A DNA stretch of 64,000 nucleotides. Source: Bacilli bacterium (GTDB taxonomy: Bacteria > Bacillota_I > Bacilli_A > RFN20 > UBA1709). A program made the position numbers and the translations under genes. Below the pieces are notes generated by a model. The model was given only the letters and a program-made list of their open reading frames with translations. It searched no databases and had not been told where the DNA came from. The stretch lies in NCBI GenBank assembly GCA_034115825.1, contig JAXESU010000002.1, positions 538,233-602,232 of the forward strand. Direction: 5' to 3'. Below are positions 33,402 through 46,911 of the stretch, piece by piece; position 1 is the first letter of the stretch; the number at the start of each line of letters is the position of its first letter.

Positions 33402-34214
33402 ATGTCAAAATTAAAAATTATTGATTTACACGTAAGTGTAGATGGAAAAGAGATTTTAAAAGGAATAAATTTAGAAATTAATGAAGGCGAAACACACGCC
33501 CTATTAGGGCCAAATGGTCACGGTAAATCAACATTATTAAATGTAATTATGGGTCATCCAAAATATGTTGTTACTAGTGGACAAATTTTATTAGATGATG
33601 AAGATGTTTTACAAATGAGTGTTGATGAACGTGCTAAAAAAGGATTGTTTTTAGCTTTTCAATACCCACAAGAAATTAATGGCGTTTCTGTTTCGGATTT
33701 TTTAAAAAGTGCAATTAATGCCAAAAGAGAAACACCTATTTCTTTGTTTAAATTTATCAAAGGATTAGAAGATTCTGCTAAAGAAGTTGGTTTTACCCTA
33801 GATATGGTTCATCGTTCAATTAATGAAGGTTTTTCGGGTGGAGAAAAGAAACGTAATGAAATTCTACAAATGCGCTTACTTGAACCTAAAATTTCATTGT
33901 TGGATGAAATTGATTCTGGTTTAGATGTAGATGGTTTACATCAAGTTGCAAAATCAATTAATGCTTTAAAAGAACGCACAAATTTAGGGCTAGTAATTGT
34001 TTCTCACTATGCTCGATTATATACGTTAATTAAACCACAATTCGTTCACGTTATTGTAAATGGTAAAGTAGCAGTTAGTGGCGATGAATCTATCATTAAA
34101 AAGATTGATGAAAAAGGTTATGAATGGATTAAAGAAGAATTAGGTATTGAAATAGTAAAAGAAGAGGTAAAACCAGTACTTTTAGAAAGTTGTGCTCGTA
34201 AAGAGGTAAAGTAA
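33402..34214 (+). CDS. sufC: Fe-S cluster assembly ATPase SufC
   Basis: Walker A GPNGHGKST, signature FSGGEKKR, Walker B LLDEIDSGLD. Confidence 0.9.
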   Translation: MSKLKIIDLHVSVDGKEILKGINLEINEGETHALLGPNGHGKSTLLNVIMGHPKYVVTSGQILLDDEDVLQMSVDERAKKGLFLAFQYPQEINGVSVSDFLKSAINAKRETPISLFKFIKGLEDSAKEVGFTLDMVHRSINEGFSGGEKKRNEILQMRLLEPKISLLDEIDSGLDVDGLHQVAKSINALKERTNLGLVIVSHYARLYTLIKPQFVHVIVNGKVAVSGDESIIKKIDEKGYEWIKEELGIEIVKEEVKPVLLESCARKEVK

Positions 34215-34215
34215 A

Positions 34216-35046
34216 ATGCTTATCAATTTTAGTGAAATTTTAAACCATAATTTTCCTAATTTAATCTATCAGAACAATACTTTATTTTTAAATGGAAATA
34301 TTGATATAAAACTTAACTATGATGTAAAGGTAGAAGAATTGAAAATAGTTGCTAATAGTGGTGAAATATCGCTTGTCGAATTTAATCCTAGTTATTCGCA
34401 AATTGATATTGTAGTTAACGTTTCAAGTAGTTTAAAGCATAGTAGCATTTATAGTAATAAGTCTAATTCCGATAATGTTAAAATTAATGTTGAAAATAGT
34501 GGAATTTACAAACGAATTTTAATTGATTTGGTTGTATCAAATTTGAATATTAATTCATGTATAAATTTAGTTGCAGATGGTTCGGAAAGTGATTATCAAT
34601 CGGCAACAATCAGTTATGATCAAAATATTAAACATCATACAGTGACAACAAATAATTTAAGTCGTTTTAGCAAAGGTAACATCTTAAATTATGGAATTGT
34701 TTATGGCGATGCTATTTTAGATATTACTGGTATTGGGGATATTAAAAAAGGTGCCAGTGTAAGTGAATCGCATCAAAAGACGGTTATTGTTACATTTGAT
34801 GAAAAGTCAAAAGGTTATGCTCGACCATTTTTATATATTGCTGAAGATGATGTAAAAGCAAGTCATGATACAGCAGTAGGTAAAATTGATGAAGAAGTAA
34901 TATTTTATTTAACTTCACGTGGTGTAAGTGAAAAGGAAGCAAAAAGATTTATAGCACTTGGATATTTTAAACCGATTATTAAAGAGTTAAATGATGATGA
35001 AACTCAACAAAAAATTATTGATTATCTAGAGGGAGTGATCAAATAA
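34216..35046 (+). CDS. sufD: Fe-S cluster assembly protein SufD (short form)
   Basis: Position between sufC and sufS; the C-terminal beta-helix region resembles SufB/D (GRGVSEKEAKRFIALGYF). Confidence 0.7.
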   Translation: MLINFSEILNHNFPNLIYQNNTLFLNGNIDIKLNYDVKVEELKIVANSGEISLVEFNPSYSQIDIVVNVSSSLKHSSIYSNKSNSDNVKINVENSGIYKRILIDLVVSNLNINSCINLVADGSESDYQSATISYDQNIKHHTVTTNNLSRFSKGNILNYGIVYGDAILDITGIGDIKKGASVSESHQKTVIVTFDEKSKGYARPFLYIAEDDVKASHDTAVGKIDEEVIFYLTSRGVSEKEAKRFIALGYFKPIIKELNDDETQQKIIDYLEGVIK

Positions 35047-36272
35047 TGCTTAATGTTAAGGAAATTAGAAAAGATTTTCCAATGCTAAATAAACAAATTC
35101 ATGGTAAAAATGTTATATATTTAGATAATGCAGCAACAACTCTTAAGCCACAAAGTGTTATTGATGCAGTGTCATACTATTACACTGATTTAGGTGCAAA
35201 TGCGCATCGTGGCGATTATGATTTATCACATGATGTTGATGTTTGTTATGAAGAAGCTCGTAAAAAAGTAGCTAATTTTATTAATGCTGATTATAAAGAA
35301 GTCTTTTTTACTTCAGGCGCGAGTATGTCTTTAAATAGTGTTGTTTATGGTGTAAGTGAGAAGTTTTTGAATGAAGGCGATGAAGTCTTAATTACTCAAG
35401 CAGAACACGCTTCTAATGTTTTACCTTGGTTTAAAATGCAACAAGATAAGAAAATAACAATAGGATACATTCCGCTTGATGAAGAAGGAAGATTAACAGT
35501 CGAAAACGTAAAAAAAGCAATAACTCCAAGAACTAAAGTCATTAGTGTGGCTCATGTTACAAATGTTTTAGGTTATTGTGCTGATATAAAAGGGATTTGT
35601 GAAGTTGCACATCAAAACAATATTTTAGTTATTGTTGATGGTGCACAAAGTGTTCCTCATCTTAAGGTTGATGTGAAAGATTTGGATTGTGATTTTTTAT
35701 GTTTTTCAGGGCACAAAATGTGTGGACCAACTGGAATTGGAGTCGTATATGGAAAATATAAACTCTTAGAAGAATTACCACCATTAATGATGGGGGGCGG
35801 CATGAATTCTAGATTTGATACATGTGGTGATTATATGTTAGTCAAGCCTCCTCATAAATTTGAGGCTGGTACTCCACATATTGAAGGGGCAATCGGTTTA
35901 GGTGCAGCTGTCGATTATTTAATGAAAATTGGAATGGATAACATTCAAAAATATGAAAAAGAATTGCATGATTATGCTATTAAAAAAATGAAAGAAATTC
36001 CAGGAGTTAAAATTTATAATGAACATGGTGACACTGGAGTTATAACATTTAATTATAAAGATGTATTTGCACAAGATATTGCGTCGCATTTAAATAAATA
36101 TGGCGTTTGTGTTCGTGCAGGTCAACATTGTGCTAAAATTTTAATGGATTATTTGGAAACTACAGCTACTGTTCGTATGTCTACATACTTCTATAATACT
36201 TTTGAAGAAATAGATGCCTTTGTTGAAGCTTTAAAAAAAGGAGATGACTATTTAGATGCCTTCTTTGGATGA
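35046..36272 (+). CDS. sufS: cysteine desulfurase SufS
   Basis: PLP-lysine motif SGHKMCGPTGIGV; C-terminal active-site Cys in RAGQHCA. Confidence 0.9.
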   Translation: MLNVKEIRKDFPMLNKQIHGKNVIYLDNAATTLKPQSVIDAVSYYYTDLGANAHRGDYDLSHDVDVCYEEARKKVANFINADYKEVFFTSGASMSLNSVVYGVSEKFLNEGDEVLITQAEHASNVLPWFKMQQDKKITIGYIPLDEEGRLTVENVKKAITPRTKVISVAHVTNVLGYCADIKGICEVAHQNNILVIVDGAQSVPHLKVDVKDLDCDFLCFSGHKMCGPTGIGVVYGKYKLLEELPPLMMGGGMNSRFDTCGDYMLVKPPHKFEAGTPHIEGAIGLGAAVDYLMKIGMDNIQKYEKELHDYAIKKMKEIPGVKIYNEHGDTGVITFNYKDVFAQDIASHLNKYGVCVRAGQHCAKILMDYLETTATVRMSTYFYNTFEEIDAFVEALKKGDDYLDAFFG

Positions 36273-36687
36273 TAAAATGTTGCGTGAAATTATAATGGAT
36301 CACTATCAATATCCACGCAATAAAAGAACAATGACTGATACAAAATACGATTCGATTCATATGGATAGTGAGTCTTGTACCGATGATATTCATGTATATT
36401 TGTGGTATGAAAATGGTATTATCAAAGATGTCGCTTTTGATGGAATTGCTTGTACAATTGCAACATCTTCCACTTCAATAATGACTGAACTTTTAATTGG
36501 AAAAACCAAAGAGGAAGCAAAGAAAATTATTGATAATTATATGAATATGATTTATGAAAAACAATATGATGAAGATTTGTTAGAAGAGGCAAATGCTTTT
36601 AAATATACATATCGTCAAGCTAATCGAATTAATTGTGCAACAATTGGTTGGAAAGGAATTAACGAGTTATTAGATAGAAAGGAGTAA
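36256..36687 (+). CDS. sufU: Fe-S cluster scaffold SufU (IscU-like)
   Basis: IMDHYQYPRNK...CTDDI...GIACTIATSS; overlaps the sufS stop. The start may instead be ATG 36277. Confidence 0.85.
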   Translation: MPSLDDKMLREIIMDHYQYPRNKRTMTDTKYDSIHMDSESCTDDIHVYLWYENGIIKDVAFDGIACTIATSSTSIMTELLIGKTKEEAKKIIDNYMNMIYEKQYDEDLLEEANAFKYTYRQANRINCATIGWKGINELLDRKE

Positions 36688-36693
36688 TAGCTT

Positions 36694-38088
36694 ATGGATA
36701 AAAAATACATCGATGATGAATATAAATATGGTTTTAAAGATGAAGACGTTTCCATTTATAAAACTAATAAAGGACTTAATGAAGATGTAATACGTGCTAT
36801 TTCTCATAAGAAAAACGAACCAAATTGGATGCTTGAGTTCCGTTTAAAATGCTTTGAGTATTTTAAAAAAGCCCCACTTCCTAATTATGGACCGGATCTT
36901 TCTAATTTAGAATATGATGATTATACTTATTTTATTCGTTCTAGTGAAGATGTTTCTAATAAATGGGAAGATGTTCCAGAAACAATCAAAGATACATTTG
37001 ATAAATTAGGTATTCCTGAAGCAGAACATAAGTTTTTGGCAGGAGTATCAACTCAATACGAATCAGAAGTAGTTTACCATAATATGCTTCAAGAGGTTGA
37101 AGAAAAAGGGGTTATATTCCTTGATACAGATAGTGCATTAAGATTATATCCAGATTTATTTAAAGAATATTTTAATACAGTTGTTCCATATTATGATAAT
37201 AAATTCGCTGCCTTAAATGGTGCTGTTTGGTCCGGTGGTTCATTTATATATGTTCCAAAAGGTGTAAAGTTAGAAAAGCCTTTACAATCATATTTTAGAA
37301 TCAATTCTGAAAGAATGGGACAATTTGAAAGAACACTAATTATTGTTGATGAAGGAGCAGATGTCCATTATGTAGAAGGTTGTACCGCTCCAATTTATTC
37401 TAAGGATTCTTTACATGCAGCAGTAGTAGAAATTGTTATTAAAAAGAATGGAAAATGCCGTTATTCAACTATTCAAAATTGGTCAAACAATATAGTAAAT
37501 TTAGTAACTAAACGAGCTCTAGTTATGGAAAATGGTATGATGGAATGGATTGATGGCAATATTGGCTCAATGCTTAATATGAAATATCCATGTTGTGTTT
37601 TAAAAGGAAATGGTGCAAAAGGATCATGTATTTCAGTTGCTGTTGCAAGTAAGAATCAACATCAAGATGCTGGAGCAAAAATGATTCATTTAGGCGAAAA
37701 CACATCTTCGGTAATTATTTCAAAATCAATTGTCCATGATGGTGGAATTTGTAATTATCGAGGAAAAGTTCAACATGGTCCTAATGCAAAAAATGCAAAG
37801 TCTCACGTTGAATGTGACACATTAATTTTAGATAATCAATCTATTACTGATACAATTCCAATGAATTTAGTTAATAATAATAGTTCGTTCATTGAACATG
37901 AAGCTACAGTATCAAAAGTTAGTGAAGAACAATTATTTTATTTGATGTCGCGTGGTTTAAGTAAAGAAGATGCAACTCAAATGATTATTATGGGATTTAT
38001 TGAACCATTTTCGAAAGAGTTACCAATGGAATATGCGGTTGAACTAAATCGTTTACTAAAACTTAATATGGAAGGATCGATTGGTTAA
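36694..38088 (+). CDS. sufB: Fe-S cluster assembly protein SufB
   Basis: 464 aa; C-terminal [17 protein letters not shown] and typical SufB core motifs. Confidence 0.9.
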
Positions 38089-38192: not shown

Positions 38193-40115
38193 ATGGAAAT
38201 CAAACAATTTAAAACAGAATCAAAACGTTTGTTAGATTTAATGATTAACTCAATTTATACGAATAAGGAAATATTTTTACGTGAATTAATTTCTAATGCA
38301 TCAGATGCTATCGATAAGTATCACGTATTATCTTTGAATGATGATAACTTAGTTAAAGAAACTAATTATCAAATTAATATTGAGGTTGATAAAAAGAATC
38401 GTACTATTACAATCAAAGATAATGGTATAGGTATGAACAAAGAAGAACTTGAAGAGAATTTAGGAACTATTGCTAATTCTGGTTCAAAAGCTTTTTTAGA
38501 AAAAATCAGTGATGAAAAACTAAAAAATGAAATGGATATTATTGGTCAATTTGGTGTAGGTTTTTATAGTGCATTTATGGTTGCTAGTAAAATTGAAGTT
38601 AAAACTAAATCACCATATAGTGAACAAGGATATTTATTTTTAAGTGAAGGTGAAGAAACATATTCAATTGATGAATGTGAAAAATTAGAACATGGTAGTG
38701 AAATCACTTTATATTTAAGAGAAAATAATGATGAAGAAAATTATGATAAGTTTATGGAATCATATGAAATAGAACATTTGGTAAAAAAATATAGTGATTA
38801 TATTCGCTATCCAATTTTAATGATGGTTGAAACATCTAAACCAAAGTTAGATGCTAACAATGAAATTATTGAAAACGAATATGAAACGGTAAGTGAATTA
38901 AAAACATTAAATTCAATGACTCCTATTTGGAAGAAAAAGAAAAACGAAGTTAGTGAAGAAGAATTAAATGATTTTTATAAGCAAAAATTTAATGATTTTG
39001 AAGACCCATTACTTACAATATTTTTTAATGTTGAAGGGATGTTAACTTATAATGCACTTATCTATATTCCAGCAAAAGCCCCTTATAATTTATATAGTGA
39101 GAAGTATGAAAAAGGTTTACAATTATATACTAAAGGTGTCTTTATTAAAGATTCATGTAAAGAATTAGTGCCAGATTATTTGCGTTTTATTAAAGGCTTA
39201 GTTGACTCTAGTGATTTATCATTAAATATTTCGCGTGAAATGTTACAACACACACGTCAATTAGAAAAAATAGCTAACTCAATTGAGAAAAAAGTTTTAA
39301 GTGAGTTAACAAAATTAAAAGAAAATGATTATGATAAATACTTAAAGTTCTTTAAAGAGTATGGAATAAACTTTAAATATGGTATTTATAATTCATTCGG
39401 TACTAATAAAGATAAATTACAAGATTTGTTAGTTTATAAATCAATTAATCAAGAAAAAGAGATTACTTTAGAAACATATGTTAATAACATTAAAGAAAAT
39501 CAAGAATTTATTTACTATGCTTCTATGAAAACAAAAGAACAAGTTTTAGCAATGCCACAAATGGACAAGATTAAAAAACTTGGTTATGATGTCTTAATTT
39601 TACAAGATGATATTGATGAATTTACAATTAGTATTCTTCAAGAATATAAAGGTAAAAAATTTAAATCAGTAAATCAAGGAGATTTAGATGTTTTATCTAA
39701 GGAAGAAGAGGAAGCATTTAACTCATTAAAAGAAACTAAACAACCATTATTAACAAAAATTAAAGAAATTCTTCAAAGTGAAGTTAGTGACGTTGTTTTA
39801 TCAAAACGTCTTCAAGACTCACCAGTATGTTTGGTTTCAAGTGAAAATGGCGTGTCTTTTGAAATGGAAAAAGCAATTAATGCAATGCCACTCGATGATA
39901 AAGTACATGCAACTAAAATTTTAGAAATTAATCCTAATCACGATTTATTTAAGGCGATTGAAAAAGCTTATGATAATAATAGTGAATCATTAAAAGATTA
40001 TGCTACTTTATTGTATAATAATGCATTGTTGATGGAAGGATTTAATATAAAAGACCCAGCTTCATTTACTAACTTAATGGCAAAATTAATTATTGAAAAT
40101 GCAAATAAAAAATAG
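38193..40115 (+). CDS. htpG: molecular chaperone HtpG (Hsp90)
   Basis: LRELISNASDAIDK, IGQFGVGFYSAFMVA (GHKL ATPase motifs), C-terminal dimerisation domain; RBS GGGAG. Confidence 0.95.
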   Translation: MEIKQFKTESKRLLDLMINSIYTNKEIFLRELISNASDAIDKYHVLSLNDDNLVKETNYQINIEVDKKNRTITIKDNGIGMNKEELEENLGTIANSGSKAFLEKISDEKLKNEMDIIGQFGVGFYSAFMVASKIEVKTKSPYSEQGYLFLSEGEETYSIDECEKLEHGSEITLYLRENNDEENYDKFMESYEIEHLVKKYSDYIRYPILMMVETSKPKLDANNEIIENEYETVSELKTLNSMTPIWKKKKNEVSEEELNDFYKQKFNDFEDPLLTIFFNVEGMLTYNALIYIPAKAPYNLYSEKYEKGLQLYTKGVFIKDSCKELVPDYLRFIKGLVDSSDLSLNISREMLQHTRQLEKIANSIEKKVLSELTKLKENDYDKYLKFFKEYGINFKYGIYNSFGTNKDKLQDLLVYKSINQEKEITLETYVNNIKENQEFIYYASMKTKEQVLAMPQMDKIKKLGYDVLILQDDIDEFTISILQEYKGKKFKSVNQGDLDVLSKEEEEAFNSLKETKQPLLTKIKEILQSEVSDVVLSKRLQDSPVCLVSSENGVSFEMEKAINAMPLDDKVHATKILEINPNHDLFKAIEKAYDNNSESLKDYATLLYNNALLMEGFNIKDPASFTNLMAKLIIENANKK

Positions 40116-40140
40116 AGAGGAATTTCCTCTCTATTTTATT
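40106..40140. terminator. bidirectional terminator shared by htpG and the convergent hypothetical gene
   Basis: aaaaaATAGAGAGG-aattt-CCTCTCTAT-tttatt. Confidence 0.75.
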
Positions 40141-41747
40141 TCTTGACGAGTTAAATCATTTTTTAATTTACTAATTGCATAGGTTAGTCCTAATTCAATT
40201 TGCATATATTCATCATGTGATAATTTATTTTTTAAATCATAATATTTGATAATATTATATGATAGTCTTTGTGTTAATTCATTAATTAAAAGTAATGGTT
40301 TTACTAAATCAAAATTTATTTGTGTTGGATCAAATGCATAAGGAGTGATGTGTGTGAAAGCATTACTTTCTTCATAGAATCCTAATAAATAATGAGTTAT
40401 TTCTTTATTATTTAATAAGTTATTTCCTAATAGGTCAACAAAGAAAGGGGAATTAGGAACATTCTCATTATTAATATTTTTAAGATATAGTGCCCAACCA
40501 TTTAGGCGAAGAATTTTATTGTCATCTACAATAACATTAAAGTTTTTACGGTAGTATGAACGAATTTTTTCAACATTTTCAATATGAACGTTATTTACAT
40601 CAACTGGATCTTCTTTTCCTCTCATATTATATTGAATTAAAAAATTGATAGCAGTTATTTTAGCATCATAACTTTTAATATTTTGATGTAAATAATATAT
40701 TTCTGAACGTTCATCATCATCATTAAGTAAACAATTTATTAAAGAAAGTGATTCAATAACATATCTTGCTTGCGCGTAAAACATCATAACATCAAATATA
40801 TAATATGACATTAACATATCGTCATAATGTGATGACAAATCATATAATAGATAGGTAATACTTAATGATTTATAACTAGCATTGTTGATACTTGACGCCA
40901 ATGAGATAATTGAATATGGTAGTGAATGAACATATTCACTTATCTGTTCTTTATTTTTAAGATATGTTTGGCGGATATCGTGTTCTTTAAAATCATTAAT
41001 TTTATTTTTTAAAATATCATCAAGTAAAGAATAGCACTCTTTATCAATTAGATTTTCATAGACGGAAGCTAAATTTGATAGAATATTGTAACAACAATCA
41101 TAGACAATACCATTAGAAATAAATAAAGCAGCTATATTAGAAATTTCTTCACCTACTTTTTTATCTTTAATTGATTCGGCAAATTTAAATGATGGGTGTA
41201 CAAAAGTATCAAAATTTTTGATTAATGTTGAATAATAATATTCATAATTTTTATTATCACCAAAGTCAACAAAATGTAAAATGTCTTTTAAAGCACTGCA
41301 TTTTTTCCCCTTTACTCGAGGAAGCCAACTAAATCTTTTCATATATTTTTTTAAATCAATTGATGTTTGATCAATTTCAGTATATGTTTCATCGATTCTA
41401 TCAACGTCACTTTTTAATGTTGCATAATACTTTTCGGCAAGCAAAGGGTTGTTTTGAATGATATTTAAGATAAGATTGGATTCAAGGCAGTTTCTTAGTA
41501 AAATTCTATTTGCATTAGCTTTTGGCATCATTGTGTATTCTTCTTGGTCGATGTCATCATATACAGATAATAGATATGATTTTAAAGAATGAACAAAGCC
41601 ATTAAAACATACGTAAGCTGATTTATAGAAATAAGTGTCTTTTGTAGAACAATTTTTAAAAGCAATTTCAATAATATCAGCGAAAGCAAAATATTTTTTT
41701 ACTTCTTTTAAAATATTTTCCTTAATTTTATTTATCACAACTATCAC
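40131..41747 (-). CDS. large hypothetical protein (about 535 aa), alpha-helical, Y/N/L-rich, no recognisable catalytic motif
   Basis: The ORF runs the full length on the minus strand. The only possible starts are GTG 41747 (abutting GAAGG) or GTG 41738 (AAGGTGA plus 5 nt). Promoter TTGACT upstream. No Walker, HTH or signal-peptide features. Confidence 0.6.
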   Translation of the reverse strand: MIVVINKIKENILKEVKKYFAFADIIEIAFKNCSTKDTYFYKSAYVCFNGFVHSLKSYLLSVYDDIDQEEYTMMPKANANRILLRNCLESNLILNIIQNNPLLAEKYYATLKSDVDRIDETYTEIDQTSIDLKKYMKRFSWLPRVKGKKCSALKDILHFVDFGDNKNYEYYYSTLIKNFDTFVHPSFKFAESIKDKKVGEEISNIAALFISNGIVYDCCYNILSNLASVYENLIDKECYSLLDDILKNKINDFKEHDIRQTYLKNKEQISEYVHSLPYSIISLASSINNASYKSLSITYLLYDLSSHYDDMLMSYYIFDVMMFYAQARYVIESLSLINCLLNDDDERSEIYYLHQNIKSYDAKITAINFLIQYNMRGKEDPVDVNNVHIENVEKIRSYYRKNFNVIVDDNKILRLNGWALYLKNINNENVPNSPFFVDLLGNNLLNNKEITHYLLGFYEESNAFTHITPYAFDPTQINFDLVKPLLLINELTQRLSYNIIKYYDLKNKLSHDEYMQIELGLTYAISKLKNDLTRQEIK

Positions 41748-41750
41748 CTT
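41739..41750. repeat. left copy of a 12-bp perfect inverted repeat (AACTATCACCTT)
   Basis: Reverse complement of 41827-41838. Each copy supplies the AAGGTGA RBS of one of the two divergent genes. Confidence 0.6.
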
Positions 41751-41826
41751 CTTATATTTTCTTAATTATATAATAGTCAAGAAAAATTATAAATACTAAT
41801 TTATAAAAAAATATGTTATTATTAAA

Positions 41827-41838
41827 AAGGTGATAGTT
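41827..41838. repeat. right copy of the 12-bp inverted repeat (AAGGTGATAGTT)
   Basis: See 41739-41750. The 76 bp in between contain the promoter of the minus-strand gene. Confidence 0.6.
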
Positions 41839-42684
41839 ATGATTAAAATGATTGCAACTGATTTAGATGGAACATTATTACATCCTAAAAGGCCATTTAC
41901 TCTTGTTTCAAAGCAAAATATCAAATTTTTACAAGGCTTTGGAAGTGCAGGAGGAAAAGTAACATTAATCACTGGCCGATCAACTGAATTTTGCCATAAA
42001 GTAGTTAAAAAACTTAAGGTTCCATGTGATATAATCTCATACACTGGTTCAGTAATAATCAAAGATGGAAAAGTATATTCGGAAGAGTTTATTCCTTTTG
42101 AAGTGGCTAATGAGTTACATAAGGTATTAGATAGTGCGAAATTTCGTTTTGCTCGTGTTTATATGCTTAAAGATAAACCATTTTTATCTAATGGTTTCGA
42201 ATATAATTTTTTTGTTAGATTTATTATGTTTTTAATGAACGTTAAAAAAATAAGATATTATGATCCAATAAAATTTTCTAAAAAGTATTTTAAAAATAAT
42301 TTCAATGAAGATGGAAAAGTATGCAAAATGATGGTTTTATACTTTAAATCAAAAAAGAAAAAGGTGTTAGAAGAACTGGAACCAGTATTTAAAAAATATA
42401 ATGATATTTTAGAGTTTCAAGTCTCACAAAATTGTATTGAAATTACTAAAAAAGGTTGCAATAAAGGTGAAAGACTAGAAGAATTAGTAAAATCATATGG
42501 AATCAACAATAATGAAGTGGCTGTAGTTGGAGATGATGGAAATGATATTTCAATGTTTGAACGTTTTCCAAACTCTTTTGCAATTAAAAGTGGTACAAAA
42601 GAATTACAAGAAATAGCAAAATATAAAGTTAAAAATATAAGTGAGTTAGCAAAGTATCTCACAGAATTAAATGTTGATTTATAA
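41839..42684 (+). CDS. Cof-type HAD-IIB family hydrolase
   Basis: AAAGGTGA precedes ATG 41839. MIKMIATDLDGTLL (motif I DxDGT), VVGDDGNDISMF (motif III). Confidence 0.8.
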   Translation: MIKMIATDLDGTLLHPKRPFTLVSKQNIKFLQGFGSAGGKVTLITGRSTEFCHKVVKKLKVPCDIISYTGSVIIKDGKVYSEEFIPFEVANELHKVLDSAKFRFARVYMLKDKPFLSNGFEYNFFVRFIMFLMNVKKIRYYDPIKFSKKYFKNNFNEDGKVCKMMVLYFKSKKKKVLEELEPVFKKYNDILEFQVSQNCIEITKKGCNKGERLEELVKSYGINNNEVAVVGDDGNDISMFERFPNSFAIKSGTKELQEIAKYKVKNISELAKYLTELNVDL

Positions 42685-42718: not shown

Positions 42719-43003
42719 GTGTTTATTATGAAAAAAAAGTTGTCTATTATTGAAATGGTTATTATATCTATTTTTGTTTTAATTATTTTGGCTTCATTGT
42801 TTATAGCTGCATCAGCTGTTTTTCGCGCCGAGTATGCTTTACAATTAGAGTATTACATCCAAAAAACATACGCTTATTATGATTTTAATTTAGTTAATGT
42901 TGCTACTGTTGTTGCTATTGTTACATGCATAATTGCTGTTTTTGTTTTAGTAGTTTTAGATAATAAATATAAAATTGTTAAGCGAAAAGTGGTTAGAAGA
43001 TAA
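42719..43003 (+). CDS. small membrane protein (2 TM helices)
   Basis: GAGGTG RBS; hydrophobic segments at the N-terminus and mid-protein. Confidence 0.5.
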   Translation: MFIMKKKLSIIEMVIISIFVLIILASLFIAASAVFRAEYALQLEYYIQKTYAYYDFNLVNVATVVAIVTCIIAVFVLVVLDNKYKIVKRKVVRR

Positions 43004-43009
43004 AAAAAT

Positions 43010-43038
43010 AAGAAGGCGTGACCTTCTTTTTTTTGAAA
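43010..43038 (+). terminator. intrinsic terminator
   Basis: AAGAAGG-cgtga-CCTTCTT followed by TTTTTTTGAAATT. Confidence 0.7.
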
Positions 43039-43047
43039 TTTGTTATA

Positions 43048-43138
43048 TGGCGGAGGAAGAGGGGTTCGAACCCTCGCGACCTATTAAAGTCCTACGAGCT
43101 TTCCAAGCCCGCCCCTTCAACCACTTGGGTATTCCTCC
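43048..43138 (-). tRNA. tRNA-Ser (anticodon GGA), class II with a long variable arm, CCA encoded
   Basis: Minus-strand sequence GGAGGAA-TA-CCC-AAGTGGTTGAA-GGG-G-CGGGC-TTGGAAA-GCTCG-(variable arm)-GAGGG-TTCGAAC-CCCTC-TTCCTCC-GCCA. The acceptor stem pairs perfectly, the T-loop is canonical TTCGAAC, and the anticodon loop is UUGGAAA. Confidence 0.85.
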
Positions 43139-43147
43139 AACTTTTAA

Positions 43148-43176
43148 GATTATACTAAATATTTTTTTTGATGTAA
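43148..43176 (-). promoter_or_regulatory. promoter for tRNA-Ser (TTTACA-17-TATAAT on the minus strand)
   Basis: TATAAT (revcomp at 43148-43153) lies 10 nt upstream of the tRNA 5-prime end; TTTACA is the revcomp at 43171-43176. Confidence 0.6.
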
Positions 43177-43179
43177 AGG

Positions 43180-43530
43180 GTGGAAAAAATGAAAAAATGT
43201 CATGTGTGTGGGAAAGAAATTAATGAAGTTGATGTTTATTGTCCGCATTGTGGGCAAAAATTAATTGATGAAGTTCAAACTAATAAAGAAACAAAAGAAA
43301 TTCCGTTAAAAAAACGAAGTGTAACATTGATGTTAGCCTTCTTTTTAGGTGCTTTTGGCTTTGAGGATTTATACATGCATCGTTTAACGGCATTTTATTT
43401 AAAATTTGGTTTAGCTTTTATTTCAATGGGATTACTAGTTATTCCTTTAATGATTATTGGTTTTATTCATTTTTTGATAATTTTATTTAATAAAGAATAT
43501 AAAGATGGATTAGGGAGAAAATTAATATGA
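43180..43530 (+). CDS. zinc-ribbon plus TM2-domain small membrane protein
   Basis: CHVCGKEINEVDVYCPHCGQKL, followed by two TM helices (TLMLAFFLGAFGFEDLYM...). The start may be ATG 43189. Confidence 0.65.
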   Translation: MEKMKKCHVCGKEINEVDVYCPHCGQKLIDEVQTNKETKEIPLKKRSVTLMLAFFLGAFGFEDLYMHRLTAFYLKFGLAFISMGLLVIPLMIIGFIHFLIILFNKEYKDGLGRKLI

Positions 43531-44531: not shown

Positions 44532-45104
44532 ATGTTTCAAACAATAAATTTTGATATTATTTTTGCAATTGTATTGATAACTTTACTAATTTGTTCAGTT
44601 TTTAAAAATAGCCGTAAAATTAAGGTTAATTTTGTACTAATGTTTTTTAGTTTATTAATCGTGGGGTGCTTAAGTTATTTTAAAGCAATCGATTATTTGG
44701 TTTTGCATTTTGGTAACTTTTTTAATAAAGTAATTGGCTATATACCAGATAGTCTAGTTAACGAAAATACATATGGTATTTTGTATTACATAATTCTTTT
44801 ACTATCTACTTTAGTTATATTCGGTTTTTTTAAACTACTAGGACTTCTAATAAGAACAGAGAATTATCGTTATAAAGAAGATCCTACTTATGTAACTTTA
44901 CATTCACCTGTTAGTGCAATATTTGTTACTTTTTTCAAATGTTTAATAATTATGTATTTGTTTGTTACTTTAATAGTTCTTTTAAATCCAATTTTACAAT
45001 TTGATTTTGCAAATTCATATGTAATTGAAGCATTTAATCGTTATGATGTTTTAGTTAAATATTTATTGGATAAAGGGAATTCCATTTTTATGTCATTGAT
45101 TTAA
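44532..45104 (+). CDS. membrane protein, possibly CvpA-like
   Basis: Promoter TTACAA-16-TATAAT at 44487-44515; 4 TM helices; no further motif. Confidence 0.45.
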   Translation: MFQTINFDIIFAIVLITLLICSVFKNSRKIKVNFVLMFFSLLIVGCLSYFKAIDYLVLHFGNFFNKVIGYIPDSLVNENTYGILYYIILLLSTLVIFGFFKLLGLLIRTENYRYKEDPTYVTLHSPVSAIFVTFFKCLIIMYLFVTLIVLLNPILQFDFANSYVIEAFNRYDVLVKYLLDKGNSIFMSLI

Positions 45105-45117
45105 GGAGGTATTAATC

Positions 45118-46182
45118 ATGAGAGAGTATGATAAAGTTGCTTTATTGTTCGAGATGTTAATTGATACCGATTTAGCATCAGTTAATCGAAAAATTACTGA
45201 AATTAAAATGAGTAAGGAATACAATAGATTGTCTGAAGCAATTGTTGCGTTATCGACTACAGAATCAATGAAAGATGTTGTTCGACGTTATAATAAATTA
45301 GATATAGAAGGTATATTGACTTTTGAACGTGCTTTAGAAGTTGAAAAAGAAATTAAAGAATTAGATAAGAGAATTGGTTTTTTAGGAAATTTCAATCCAT
45401 ATTTAGTAAATGAAGATAATGCTCGACAATATGGTATAAAAACTGTTGGGGATGTTAGCGTTGAAGTATCTGCCAATAATATGAAAGTGAATGATTTTAC
45501 AACTAAAGAAGGTGTTACGACTAATCATCGTCGTAAAATAATGAAAATTAAAGCATTCAACTGGTATAAAGAAGCTAAAAAAGCAGTATACTTAATTATT
45601 GAAAATACTAAATTGTATTTAACAAGAATTCGAAAGTCAAAAGTTAGATTTAAAAGCTTAGGACTAGAATTTATTATATTAAGTCTTTTATTATGTGCTA
45701 GTTTAGGGTTAACCTTCTTTTCAAAAAATATGGAGGCATTCAGATTAGGTGCCCTTAATAATTCAATGATGATCCTTGGGTTAGTTAGTTTGTATACGTT
45801 ATTAATCTCGTTTATGTTTGTCTCTATTATTAGAGTCCATTATCGTTATTATGGATTTAGAATGGCTTCTAAGATGCGAAAAAATTTAAAATATCAACAA
45901 CAAGTAATTCGTGAATTAGATGAATGTTCAATAAAGTTCGAACGTGATTTAATTTCACAAGTTAGAAAACCTCGAAAAGTTAAAACATCGCTTGTTTCAA
46001 CGGGTATCTTAAATGAAAAAAATAATTTATCATTTAATGAAGTATTCGAATATATGTATAGTGAAAAAGAGTATTATTATTCAAAACATAAGACAGTATT
46101 AGTCCTAAGTAATATATTCTTTATGATTGGCGTTTTAGCAGCAGTAATATTAATATCTTTACCATTAATTATTGCATTATAG
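45118..46182 (+). CDS. hypothetical membrane-associated protein (soluble N-terminal domain, 3 central TM helices, C-terminal TM)
   Basis: AAGGAGG RBS; no recognisable motif. Confidence 0.55.
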   Translation: MREYDKVALLFEMLIDTDLASVNRKITEIKMSKEYNRLSEAIVALSTTESMKDVVRRYNKLDIEGILTFERALEVEKEIKELDKRIGFLGNFNPYLVNEDNARQYGIKTVGDVSVEVSANNMKVNDFTTKEGVTTNHRRKIMKIKAFNWYKEAKKAVYLIIENTKLYLTRIRKSKVRFKSLGLEFIILSLLLCASLGLTFFSKNMEAFRLGALNNSMMILGLVSLYTLLISFMFVSIIRVHYRYYGFRMASKMRKNLKYQQQVIRELDECSIKFERDLISQVRKPRKVKTSLVSTGILNEKNNLSFNEVFEYMYSEKEYYYSKHKTVLVLSNIFFMIGVLAAVILISLPLIIAL

Positions 46183-46194
46183 GAGGACGATTTT

Positions 46195-46911
46195 ATGGAA
46201 ACATTGAATAAAATGCTAGAAGATTTAATTAATAAAGGTAGTTATTTTGTTGATGAAGATAATAAAATTGTTCTTACACGTGAGCATTTAGGCGAAACTC
46301 TAGCAGGTAATTATGAAGCTAGCATAATGGCTTTACAAGATGGCAATTTATTAAAAGCTTTTAAAGCTTGTGATTTAGATGCATATAATTATTTAAATGA
46401 ATTACAAAGTAAAGATTTAGATTTATCACTTGTTTTATTTCATTTACAATATTTCTTAAACAAAAATTTACCTTTATCATTTAAAGAGACTGTTTTTAAA
46501 GATTTAAAATCATTTGGGCAATTACTATTTGATAATAGAATTGATGATTATATTATTGAAGAAATTTTAAAAAATCAAATAACAAGTAAATATTTAAAAA
46601 TAAAAGGCATTGATGAAGTTAGTAAAGTAATGTTTGATAATATTGTTTTAGCCGAAAATTTAGTTAATGAACAATTTGAAGTTGCAAAAAAATTAGTTGC
46701 ATATGCACTTTTAGAGAAAGAAGATTATACTTATGCTTCTAAGAAATTTAATAGCATTGAAGAGTTATATGATTTCTTATTGCAAAAGAAAAAATTAATG
46801 CGTTTTTCAAAAACATTTAAAGAAGATTATAATTTCATGGCTTGGATAATTTATTTAGGAAAATATGATTTAGTTAAATTATGGAGCGAAAGAATCCAAT
46901 ATTTTGATTAG
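46195..46911 (+). CDS. hypothetical soluble protein (238 aa)
   Basis: GGAGGA RBS; alpha-helical; no motif recognised. Confidence 0.55.
   Translation: METLNKMLEDLINKGSYFVDEDNKIVLTREHLGETLAGNYEASIMALQDGNLLKAFKACDLDAYNYLNELQSKDLDLSLVLFHLQYFLNKNLPLSFKETVFKDLKSFGQLLFDNRIDDYIIEEILKNQITSKYLKIKGIDEVSKVMFDNIVLAENLVNEQFEVAKKLVAYALLEKEDYTYASKKFNSIEELYDFLLQKKKLMRFSKTFKEDYNFMAWIIYLGKYDLVKLWSERIQYFD

What the first reader, a model, noticed from the sequence alone, without database searches (positions are those of the whole stretch)
40131..41747. Orphan 535-aa alpha-helical protein with a non-ATG start, convergent with htpG
SEEN: a single long minus-strand ORF with no Walker, HTH, signal-peptide or TM features. 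It is Tyr/Asn/Leu-rich. The only possible initiators are GTG codons next to AAGGTGA, and it has its own TTGACT promoter and shares a bidirectional terminator with htpG. One R-x6-H stretch (RSEIYYLH) is the only HEPN-like hint. INFERENCE: a lineage-specific protein of unknown role inserted between conserved genes. Abi-like or other conflict proteins often look like this, but there is no positive evidence.
Basis: seen in the sequence. Interest (0 to 1): 0.5.

Follow-up and report, generated by a model that had tools for sequence, protein, structure and literature searches.

The report
Conserved two-module DUF5677-like helical protein
The ORF is a real, well-conserved gene for a soluble all-helical protein made of two diverged copies of a poorly known domain (DUF5677-like); it is inherited vertically with the same upstream neighbours in a small group of uncultured Bacilli, so it is not an inserted orphan, but what it does is still unknown.

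Summary
The minus-strand ORF is real: a 535-aa CDS (40131-41738) starting at GTG 41738, where homologs have ATG. It is under purifying selection (dN/dS about 0.1-0.2) and shares a strong bidirectional terminator with htpG. It is not an orphan. About 30-50 homolog clusters (28-75% identity) exist, all in uncultured Bacilli MAGs, and none on phages, plasmids or viral contigs. It is not an insertion either. GC content matches the neighbours, and 14 of 17 distinct contexts keep the same divergent upstream genes: a 91-aa two-TM protein and/or a Cof-type HAD phosphatase, plus Ppx/GppA in one clade. The protein is an internal duplication of a roughly 250-aa helical module. Both modules give weak, recurrent matches to Pfam DUF5677, and one distant member scores above threshold. 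The invariant residues are paired between modules (R82/E86/H181 and R325/E329/H463, plus H351). Two conserved Rx6H motifs with a polar residue after the R resemble HEPN RNase sites, but no profile or fold search proves HEPN membership, and no solved structure matches specifically. My best guess is a lineage-specific R/E/H-dependent hydrolase, possibly HEPN-like and acting on RNA or nucleotides, linked to its upstream neighbours. Defence is not excluded but has no positive support. Interest is modest.

The parts
40131..41738 (-). CDS of the 535-aa protein ('X'), including the TAG stop at 40131-40133. GTG start at 41736-41738.
   Evidence: ORF list and sequence. Homologs start with ATG at the aligned position. 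28+ homologs, dN/dS 0.12-0.24.
41744..41750 (-). Shine-Dalgarno AAGGTGA, 5 nt before the GTG start.
   Evidence: Sequence. Homologs have GGAGG/AGGTGA at the same distance.
41765..41793 (-). Most plausible promoter: TTTATA-17 nt-TATAAT (-10 at 41770-41765).
   Evidence: Scan hit with 10/12 matches. Homologs carry an extended -10 (TGnTAnAAT) 8-15 nt before their SD. Not statistically above chance in this AT-rich DNA.
40109..40137 (.). Bidirectional intrinsic terminator shared with htpG: 13-bp stem, 3-nt loop, T-runs on both strands.
   Evidence: MFE -16.5 kcal/mol, z = -5.1, 0 of 200 shuffles as stable.
40989..41738 (-). N-terminal helical module (aa 1-250), DUF5677-like. Invariant R82, E86, D111, H181, P182.
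40134..40985 (-). C-terminal helical module (aa 252-535), a diverged repeat of the N-module. Invariant R325, E329, H351, W415, H463.
41481..41495 (-). R82-x3-E86 (LLRNCLES), invariant pair in the N-module helix 79-96.
   Evidence: Aligned by hhalign to R325-x3-E329.
41196..41219 (-). K174-N175-x5-H181 (KNFDTFVH-PSF): [R/K]-N-x5-H at the end of a helix running into a loop, the HEPN-like position.
   Evidence: R 17 / K 11 of 28, N 25/28, H 28/28 in the core family; H and P invariant in the broad alignment. Secondary structure. Motif definition from PMC3710099.
40752..40766 (-). R325-x3-E329 (ARYVIES), invariant pair in the C-module.
40686..40709 (-).
   Evidence: R 28/28, S/N 26/28, H 28/28 in the core family. 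R is lost in 4 of 21 sequences of the broad alignment; H is invariant.
40350..40373 (-). E456-E457-x5-H463 (EESNAFTH-ITPY), the C-module counterpart of the K174..H181 motif, with Glu in place of the basic residue.
   Evidence: hhalign column mapping K174~E456 and H181~H463. Conservation.
41839..42684 (+). Divergently transcribed Cof-type HAD phosphatase (Hydrolase_3). A conserved upstream partner of X.
   Evidence: Pfam E = 1.6e-45. Orthologs are divergent from X in 10 distinct contexts.
42719..43003 (+). Small (about 91 aa) two-TM protein gene, probable ATG at 42728. A conserved upstream partner of X; no known family.
   Evidence: Alignment A2 at 22-47% identity over full length. Two hydrophobic segments. 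Found divergent from X in 10 distinct contexts.
38193..40115 (+). htpG (HSP90), convergent downstream neighbour. Adjacent only in the clade with X identity of 49% or more.

Best explanation
X is a genuine, vertically inherited, cytoplasmic all-alpha protein specific to a small lineage of uncultured low-GC Bacilli. It arose by tandem duplication of a roughly 250-aa helical module that is remotely related to Pfam DUF5677. Each module keeps an invariant Arg-x3-Glu pair on one helix and an invariant His at the end of a later helix (R82/E86/H181 and R325/E329/H463). The C-module adds a third invariant His (H351). These steps are shown.

Inferred: the two modules pack as a pseudo-dimer, and the invariant Arg/Glu/His residues form one or two catalytic or ligand-binding sites. 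Both modules carry an Rx6H motif with a polar residue after the R, and the N-module motif sits at a helix end running into a loop. On that basis the chemistry I consider most likely is a HEPN-like, metal-independent phosphodiester hydrolysis of RNA or a nucleotide-derived substrate.

The gene has its own promoter and terminator. It is kept next to a divergently transcribed 91-aa two-TM protein and/or a Cof-type HAD phosphatase, and sits directly downstream of Ppx/GppA in one clade. So it probably acts with these in a lineage-specific housekeeping or stress function, not as a mobile defence gene.
For: - Real gene: 28 homologs and 31 representative clusters; dN/dS 0.12-0.24; confident AF2 model, pLDDT 88, pTM 0.90.
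- Duplication: hhalign of the N-half against the C-half gives P = 2.4e-4 to 5.8e-5 over 227-240 columns with motif-to-motif correspondence.
- DUF5677 link: hits on N-halves in 8/28 members, on the C-half in P0026 and in 3 of 7 isolated C-halves, and 32 bits (above GA 27.1) in P0051.
- Invariant polar residues.
- Vertical inheritance and linkage: GC content equals the neighbours; 14 of 17 contexts keep small TM, HAD or Ppx upstream while the other flanks vary.
- Not mobile: no relatives on phages, plasmids or viral contigs.
Against: - No HEPN-family profile is matched by any member.
- The upstream acidic motif is R-x3-E, not the usual E-x3-[KR].
- The window protein has Lys, not Arg, at position 174.
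- The basic residues of both Rx6H motifs are mostly lost in the five most distant members.
- R344-H351 lies at the start and middle of a helix, not at a helix end.
- I could not read the model coordinates, so spatial clustering of the invariant residues is untested.
- Neighbour conservation could partly reflect the difficulty of breaking short (82-170 bp) divergent intergenic regions, with no functional coupling behind it.
Confidence: 0.4

Rival explanations
1. X is an Abi-like or other conflict protein: a single-chain two-HEPN-like RNase toxin that is activated on phage infection, possibly with the small TM protein as partner or effector.
For: - Two conserved Rx6H motifs.
- A 2025 preprint found DUF5677 domains enriched next to serine recombinases in Bacillota defence islands (PMC12632615).
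- The most distant member, P0051, lies within 8 kb of NERD, two HNH, DNA methylase and MTaX1 genes.
- P0010 is flanked by AAA_14/DUF4143 ATPases.
- The family is narrow and patchy-looking.
Against: - No PADLOC hit for the window protein, and no recurrent hit in 21 members.
- No relatives on phages, plasmids or IMG/VR contigs.
- GC content equals the neighbours.
- Stable chromosomal position between htpG/suf and HAD/rluD housekeeping genes, and conserved partners down to 30% identity.
- Purifying selection and a single copy per contig.
- The DUF5677 ORF tested in the preprint was not among the five that reduced plaquing.
Confidence: 0.15
2. X is a non-catalytic helical scaffold or adaptor. The conserved polar residues mediate binding to a partner, for example the divergently encoded two-TM protein, or stabilise the fold.
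For: - The fold searches return only generic helical bundles, BAR-like domains and designed repeat proteins.
- No catalytic family is matched.
- The basic residues of the Rx6H motifs are dispensable in the distant clade.
- There is a conserved pairing with a small membrane protein.
Against: The ten residues invariant across 15-100% identity are nearly all Arg/Glu/Asp/His, plus one Trp and one Pro. They occur as matched sets in both modules, which is more typical of active or ligand sites than of interaction surfaces.
Confidence: 0.2
3. X is an accessory enzyme or regulator of phosphorylated-nucleotide or polyphosphate turnover, working with Ppx/GppA, the Cof-type HAD phosphatase and a NUDIX hydrolase, for example by binding or hydrolysing (p)ppGpp, polyP or a nucleotide derivative.
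For: - In the roughly 40% identity clade, X starts a few nt (4 to 9 in the called genes) after a short 305-307-aa Ppx/GppA gene, a likely operon.
- A Cof-type HAD gene is divergent from X in 10 distinct contexts.
- A NUDIX gene is convergent with X in two clades: it overlaps X's 3' end in one (L009/L023) and lies about 1 kb downstream in the other (L007).
Against: - There is no Ppx/GppA or NUDIX gene anywhere in this 64-kb window.
- No nucleotide-binding family or motif was detected.
- The association with three kinds of phosphohydrolase may be coincidental in small genomes rich in such genes.
Confidence: 0.15
4. The ORF is a chance open frame or a decaying pseudogene in AT-rich DNA.
For: A non-ATG start and an AT-rich, low-complexity-looking composition.
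Against: Full-length homologs at 28-75% identity with 10 invariant residues, dN/dS well below 1, ATG starts in homologs, and a confident structure prediction.
Confidence: 0.01

Closest known systems
Pfam DUF5677 (PF18928), a bacterial domain of unknown function
   Same: It is the only family that family members match repeatedly. The hits cover profile positions ~28-158 of 166, spanning the R-x3-E helix through the His-Pro loop, in both halves of the protein. One distant member (P0051) scores 32 bits against a gathering score of 27.1.
   Different: The window protein itself gives no DUF5677 hit even at E <= 10, and most members are below threshold. Here the module is duplicated in tandem within a 500-600-aa protein and carries extra helices. 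DUF5677 has no known function, so the link names a fold and not a mechanism.
HEPN superfamily RNases, especially the AF0298-like HEPN-T and AbiV type (Anantharaman et al. 2013, PMC3710099)
   Same: - Helical bundle.
- Conserved Rx6H motifs with a polar residue after the R.
- The N-module His sits at a helix end running into a loop.
- An invariant upstream Glu.
   Different: - No sequence-profile link to any HEPN family.
- The upstream motif is R-x3-E, not E-x3-[KR].
- The window protein has Lys in place of Arg.
- The modules are about 250 aa with 12 helices, not about 120 aa with 4.
- No HEPN hit when the N-module is searched alone.
Single-chain proteins with two HEPN domains that form an intramolecular composite site (such as Cas13); comparison from general knowledge only
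   Same: Two related helical modules in one polypeptide, each contributing conserved Arg and His residues.
   Different: There is no homology evidence at all, no CRISPR or other defence context, and the geometry of the two modules was not examined. This is an analogy and not a classification.

Membership tests
Pfam DUF5677 (PF18928) | Score at or above the Pfam gathering threshold (27.1 bits) against the family HMM | tested here: not met
   The window protein has no hit at E <= 10. 8 of 28 members score 13-23 bits. Only the distant member P0051 passes, at 32 bits. The link is transitive, through within-family homology (E = 9e-4 between the window protein and P0051).
Pfam DUF5677 (PF18928) | The match covers most of the domain profile and recurs at the same place in independent members | tested here: met
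   Profile positions ~28-158 of 166 map to aa ~78-190 in seven members and to the C-half in P0026 and in 3 of 7 isolated C-halves.
HEPN superfamily | Conserved Rx4-6H motif with a polar residue (N/D/H) right after the R | tested here: met
   [R17/K11]174-N(25/28)-x5-H181(28/28) and R344(28/28)-[S/N](26/28)-x5-H351(28/28) in the core family. The basic residue is lost in most of the 5 distant sequences, and the window protein has K174. Definition from PMC3710099.
HEPN superfamily | [quoted passage not shown] | tested here: inconclusive
   This holds for K174..H181 (helix 164-179, His in the loop). It does not hold for R344..H351, which lies within helix 342-355. Helix numbering relative to a HEPN core could not be established.
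HEPN superfamily | Upstream conserved acidic residue, typically within E-x3-[KR] | tested here: inconclusive
   E86 and E329 are invariant, but they occur as R-x3-E, the reverse order.
HEPN superfamily | Four-helix up-down bundle specifically similar to solved HEPN structures | tested here: inconclusive
HEPN superfamily | Sequence-profile similarity to a HEPN-clan family | tested here: not met
   No HEPN_*, DUF86 or Abi_C hit at E <= 1 in any of 38 members scanned against Pfam. No PDB sequence-profile hit.
HEPN superfamily | Metal-independent RNase activity that depends on the motif His | not testable with these tools
   Requires biochemistry.
Known anti-phage defence systems (PADLOC-DB 2.0) | Match to a defence-protein HMM and/or location in a defence island or mobile element | tested here: not met
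   0 hits for the window protein and no recurrent hit in 21 members. The neighbours are htpG, the suf operon, HAD, tRNA-Ser and rluD. No relatives on phages, plasmids or viral contigs.

The most novel reading that the evidence does not exclude
X founds a previously undescribed enzyme family: a single-chain pseudo-dimer of two DUF5677-type modules whose paired Arg/Glu/His sets form a HEPN-like composite RNase or nucleotide hydrolase site. It would be fixed as a core chromosomal gene in a reduced-genome Bacilli lineage and act with a dedicated small membrane protein and a Cof-type phosphatase. If so, it would give the first functional handle on DUF5677 and show a HEPN-like nuclease recruited to housekeeping instead of conflict.
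Probability: 0.15. Interest if true: 0.6.

Novelty: new variant of a known kind. Interest (0 to 1): 0.33.

Why it matters
If the inference holds, this small family links the uncharacterised Pfam domain DUF5677 to a concrete, testable catalytic hypothesis: paired R-x3-E...His sites and Rx6H motifs. It would also show the domain in a tandem, single-chain form. A gene trio that stays together while its surroundings change (X, a 91-aa two-TM protein, a Cof-type phosphatase, with or without Ppx/GppA) points to an unrecognised pathway in a poorly studied group of gut and digester Bacilli. On present evidence, though, it is one more conserved hypothetical protein, so the practical value is a corrected annotation ('DUF5677-like tandem-domain protein', not an orphan or an insertion) and a set of specific mutants to test.

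Tried and rejected
- Direct family assignment: Pfam, NCBIfam, PADLOC and PHROGs on the window protein gave only noise. Family-wide scans of PADLOC, NCBIfam and PHROGs gave no recurrent hit.
- PDB sequence-profile searches with the full family and with the N-module gave only chance hits with E > 0.2.
- Foldseek against the PDB found nothing with E < 0.05. The afdb50 library was unavailable.
- Two profile searches meant to reach canonical DUF5677 proteins (A3 and A5) returned only known members, so I could not build a DUF5677 alignment for profile-profile comparison.
- tblastn against phages and plasmids, and an IMG/VR scan, found no relatives.
- Presence/absence next to htpG: htpG relatives at 57-64% identity lack X, but they also lack every other window neighbour, so they say nothing about insertion.
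- A search for a shared operator in the divergent intergenic regions found only -10 promoter boxes.
- Rfam on 37-46 kb found only the tRNA.
- The 91-aa gene downstream of P0051 is not the small TM protein: it has no hydrophobic segment and no BLAST match.
- Rejected: a spurious ORF or pseudogene; a recent horizontal insertion; TTGACT as the -35.

Full report
OBSERVATION. The window has one long minus-strand ORF at 40131-41747. The frame has no ATG before Met72. Two GTG codons are available, at 41747 and 41738, and the first lies inside the AAGGTGA Shine-Dalgarno sequence. The second follows that sequence by 5 nt. Ten homologs from other contigs start with ATG at the position aligned with GTG 41738, each behind a GGAGG or AGGTGA site. 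The 535-aa reading is therefore correct, and the non-ATG start is peculiar to this genome. A 13-bp GC-containing hairpin at 40109-40137 spans both the htpG stop (40115) and the X stop (40131) and has T-runs on both strands. It folds at -16.5 kcal/mol, z = -5.1 against shuffles. The protein has no hydrophobic segment. Its composition is L/I/N/K/Y-rich, as expected for 25% GC DNA.

Homologs carry an extended -10 box (TGnTAnAAT) 8-15 nt before their SD, and TATAAT is the positional equivalent of that box in the window. Its -35 would be TTTATA, which is the hit returned by the scan. Promoter-like sites are not enriched over shuffles in this region (34 against 26 +/- 5).

NOT AN ORPHAN, AND A REAL GENE. 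A word-indexed search of 5.8 billion proteins found 28 homologs at 29-100% identity. An exhaustive HMMER search of 1.84 billion cluster representatives found 31. A GTDB scan found 12 loci in about 10 species. All are metagenome-assembled 'Bacilli bacterium' or 'uncultured Eubacteriales' genomes. Pairwise dN/dS against the 50-75% identical orthologs is 0.12-0.24, with dS saturated. AlphaFold2 with the 28-sequence alignment gives a confident all-alpha model (pLDDT 88.1, pTM 0.90).

NOT AN INSERTION. GC content across X (0.25) equals that of htpG and the HAD gene. I collected 17 non-redundant genomic contexts.
- The order small TM - HAD <- | -> X <- htpG is kept in every member with X identity of 49% or more (window, L001, L002/3 without HAD, L032, L033).
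- Below that level the downstream gene changes (LRR_5, P-II, NUDIX/DUF445, Band_7, AAA_14/DUF4143), and so do the genes further upstream (RNase J/FtsK, xanthine permeases, DAO).
- The immediate upstream side persists. A divergently transcribed two-TM protein of about 91 aa (alignment A2; hydropathy) and/or an orthologous Cof-type HAD phosphatase is present in 14 of 17 contexts, down to 30% X identity.
- In the 39-42% identity clade, a short Ppx/GppA gene ends just upstream of X on the same strand (4 to 9 nt in the called genes).
- The exceptions are L017, L022 and the most distant clade (L025).

No relative exists in 50,697 phage records, 72,556 plasmids or IMG/VR. This pattern is vertical inheritance of a small linked gene group, not a mobile insertion.

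ANATOMY. The alignments (A1, 28 sequences; A3, 21 sequences reaching 15% identity) leave ten invariant residues: R82, E86, D111, H181, P182, R325, E329, H351, W415 and H463. They form two parallel series:
- YLL..YDD at 55-62 and 296-307
- R-x3-E at 82-86 and 325-329
- [KR]RFSW at 134-138 and RLNGW at 411-415
- helix-end [R/K]N-x5-H-P at 174-182 and EE-x5-H-x-T at 456-465

hhalign of the N-half profile against the C-half profile gives P = 2.4e-4 (local) and 5.8e-5 (global) over 227-240 columns and reproduces exactly these correspondences. The protein is therefore an internal duplication of a module of about 250 aa. H351, with R344, lies in a helix that hhalign treats as a C-module-specific insertion.

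FAMILY LINK. The window protein matches nothing in Pfam, NCBIfam, PADLOC or PHROGs. Scanning every member is more informative. DUF5677 (PF18928) is the only recurrent family, hit by 8 of 28 members with a best E of 7e-5. The match covers profile positions ~28-158 of 166 on aa ~78-190, and falls on the C-half in P0026. Three of seven isolated C-halves hit it independently. The most distant family member, P0051, scores 32 bits, above the 27.1-bit gathering score. So the modules are remote DUF5677 relatives. The literature on DUF5677 is nearly empty. One preprint found it enriched next to serine recombinases in Bacillota, but the tested ORF was not among the five reported to reduce plaquing (PMC12632615).

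HEPN QUESTION. [quoted passage not shown]

X has two conserved Rx6H motifs. The second sits exactly at a helix end running into a loop in both AF2 models. Invariant E86 and E329 lie on earlier helices, but in the order R-x3-E.

Structure comparison does not settle the question:
- Foldseek against the PDB finds nothing.
- No member matches any HEPN-clan profile.
- The basic residues of both motifs are mostly lost in the five most divergent sequences, and the window protein has Lys at position 174.

I therefore treat 'works like a HEPN-type hydrolase' as the leading mechanistic guess. I do not file X as a HEPN member.

MECHANISM AND RIVALS.
- Shown: a conserved soluble two-module protein with paired invariant Arg/Glu/His residues; its own promoter region and terminator; stable linkage to a small membrane protein, a Cof-type phosphatase and, in one clade, Ppx/GppA.
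- Inferred: the invariant residues form catalytic or ligand sites, possibly a composite site between the pseudo-symmetric modules, that perform phosphodiester or phospho-nucleotide chemistry in a lineage-specific housekeeping or stress role (confidence about 0.4).
- Rivals: a non-catalytic adaptor (0.2); a role in (p)ppGpp, polyP or nucleotide turnover suggested by the Ppx, HAD and NUDIX neighbours (0.15; weakened because no Ppx or NUDIX gene is in this window); an Abi-like defence toxin (0.15; supported only by the motifs, the preprint's enrichment result, and the defence-like surroundings of the distant paralog P0051); a spurious ORF (refuted).

LIMITS.
- I could not read the model coordinates, so clustering of the invariant residues is untested.
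- The AlphaFold database library was unavailable.
- Canonical DUF5677 sequences could not be retrieved for profile-profile comparison.
- Conservation of the divergent neighbours may partly reflect the short (82-170 bp) shared promoter regions and not functional coupling.

VERDICT. The object is a new, tandem-duplicated, highly diverged variant of the DUF5677 domain family with HEPN-like motifs. It is of modest interest, with clear experiments available to test it.

Noticed in passing
window 43048-43138 (-): tRNA-Ser (anticodon GGA) just beyond the small TM gene. The mechanical ORF 42975-43223 (+) that overlies it is spurious. A second bidirectional terminator-like hairpin lies at 43010-43028.
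   Followed up: partly
window 41830-42684 (+): The HAD (Cof-type, Hydrolase_3) ORF is listed from GTG 41830, but homolog alignments begin at 41839 (ATG, 'MIKMIATDLDGT'). HAD orthologs in eight loci share an extended -10 box (TGnTAnAAT) about 10-15 nt before their SD.
   Followed up: partly
window 42719-43003 (+); L002:7567-7842, L007:7624-7902, L009:7615-7887, L033:2777-3073, L034:4372-4659: A family of two-TM proteins of about 91 aa with a basic C-terminal tail and no Pfam match. It is repeatedly encoded divergently from X. Its own distribution and function were not explored.
   Followed up: partly
L004:7073-7996, L011:7074-7991, L019:5065-5958: In the 39-42% identity clade, a short (305-307 aa) Ppx/GppA gene ends 4 nt (L004) to 9 nt (L011) before X, a probable operon. 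No Ppx/GppA gene is present in the 64-kb window.
   Followed up: partly
L025:8001-17478: The most distant family member (P0051, DUF5677 above threshold) lies near NERD, two HNH nucleases, a DNA methylase and MTaX1. This looks like a restriction or defence neighbourhood, unlike the window.
   Followed up: no
L002:11661-12380 and L003:5123-5842: In the 64%-identity relative, a 239-aa barnase-type 'Ribonuclease' (PF00545) gene sits between htpG and sufB. It is absent from the window and from L001, so it is a small indel in otherwise conserved synteny.
   Followed up: no
L013 and L014 (MAG STD2_121): One MAG carries two contigs with near-identical HAD-Ppx-X loci (Ppx 96-100% identical). This is probably strain heterogeneity in the bin and not a true duplication.
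   Followed up: no
window 33402-38088 (+): A complete suf Fe-S cluster operon (ABC ATPase, SufD-like, SufS aminotransferase, NifU-type SufU, SufB) lies directly upstream of htpG and is syntenic in L001 and L002.
   Followed up: no
window 44532-46911 (+): Three consecutive genes (190, 354 and 238 aa; the first two are clearly membrane proteins) have no Pfam match in the syntenic relatives either (L001: 191, 352 and 245 aa). They form another lineage-specific block.
   Followed up: no
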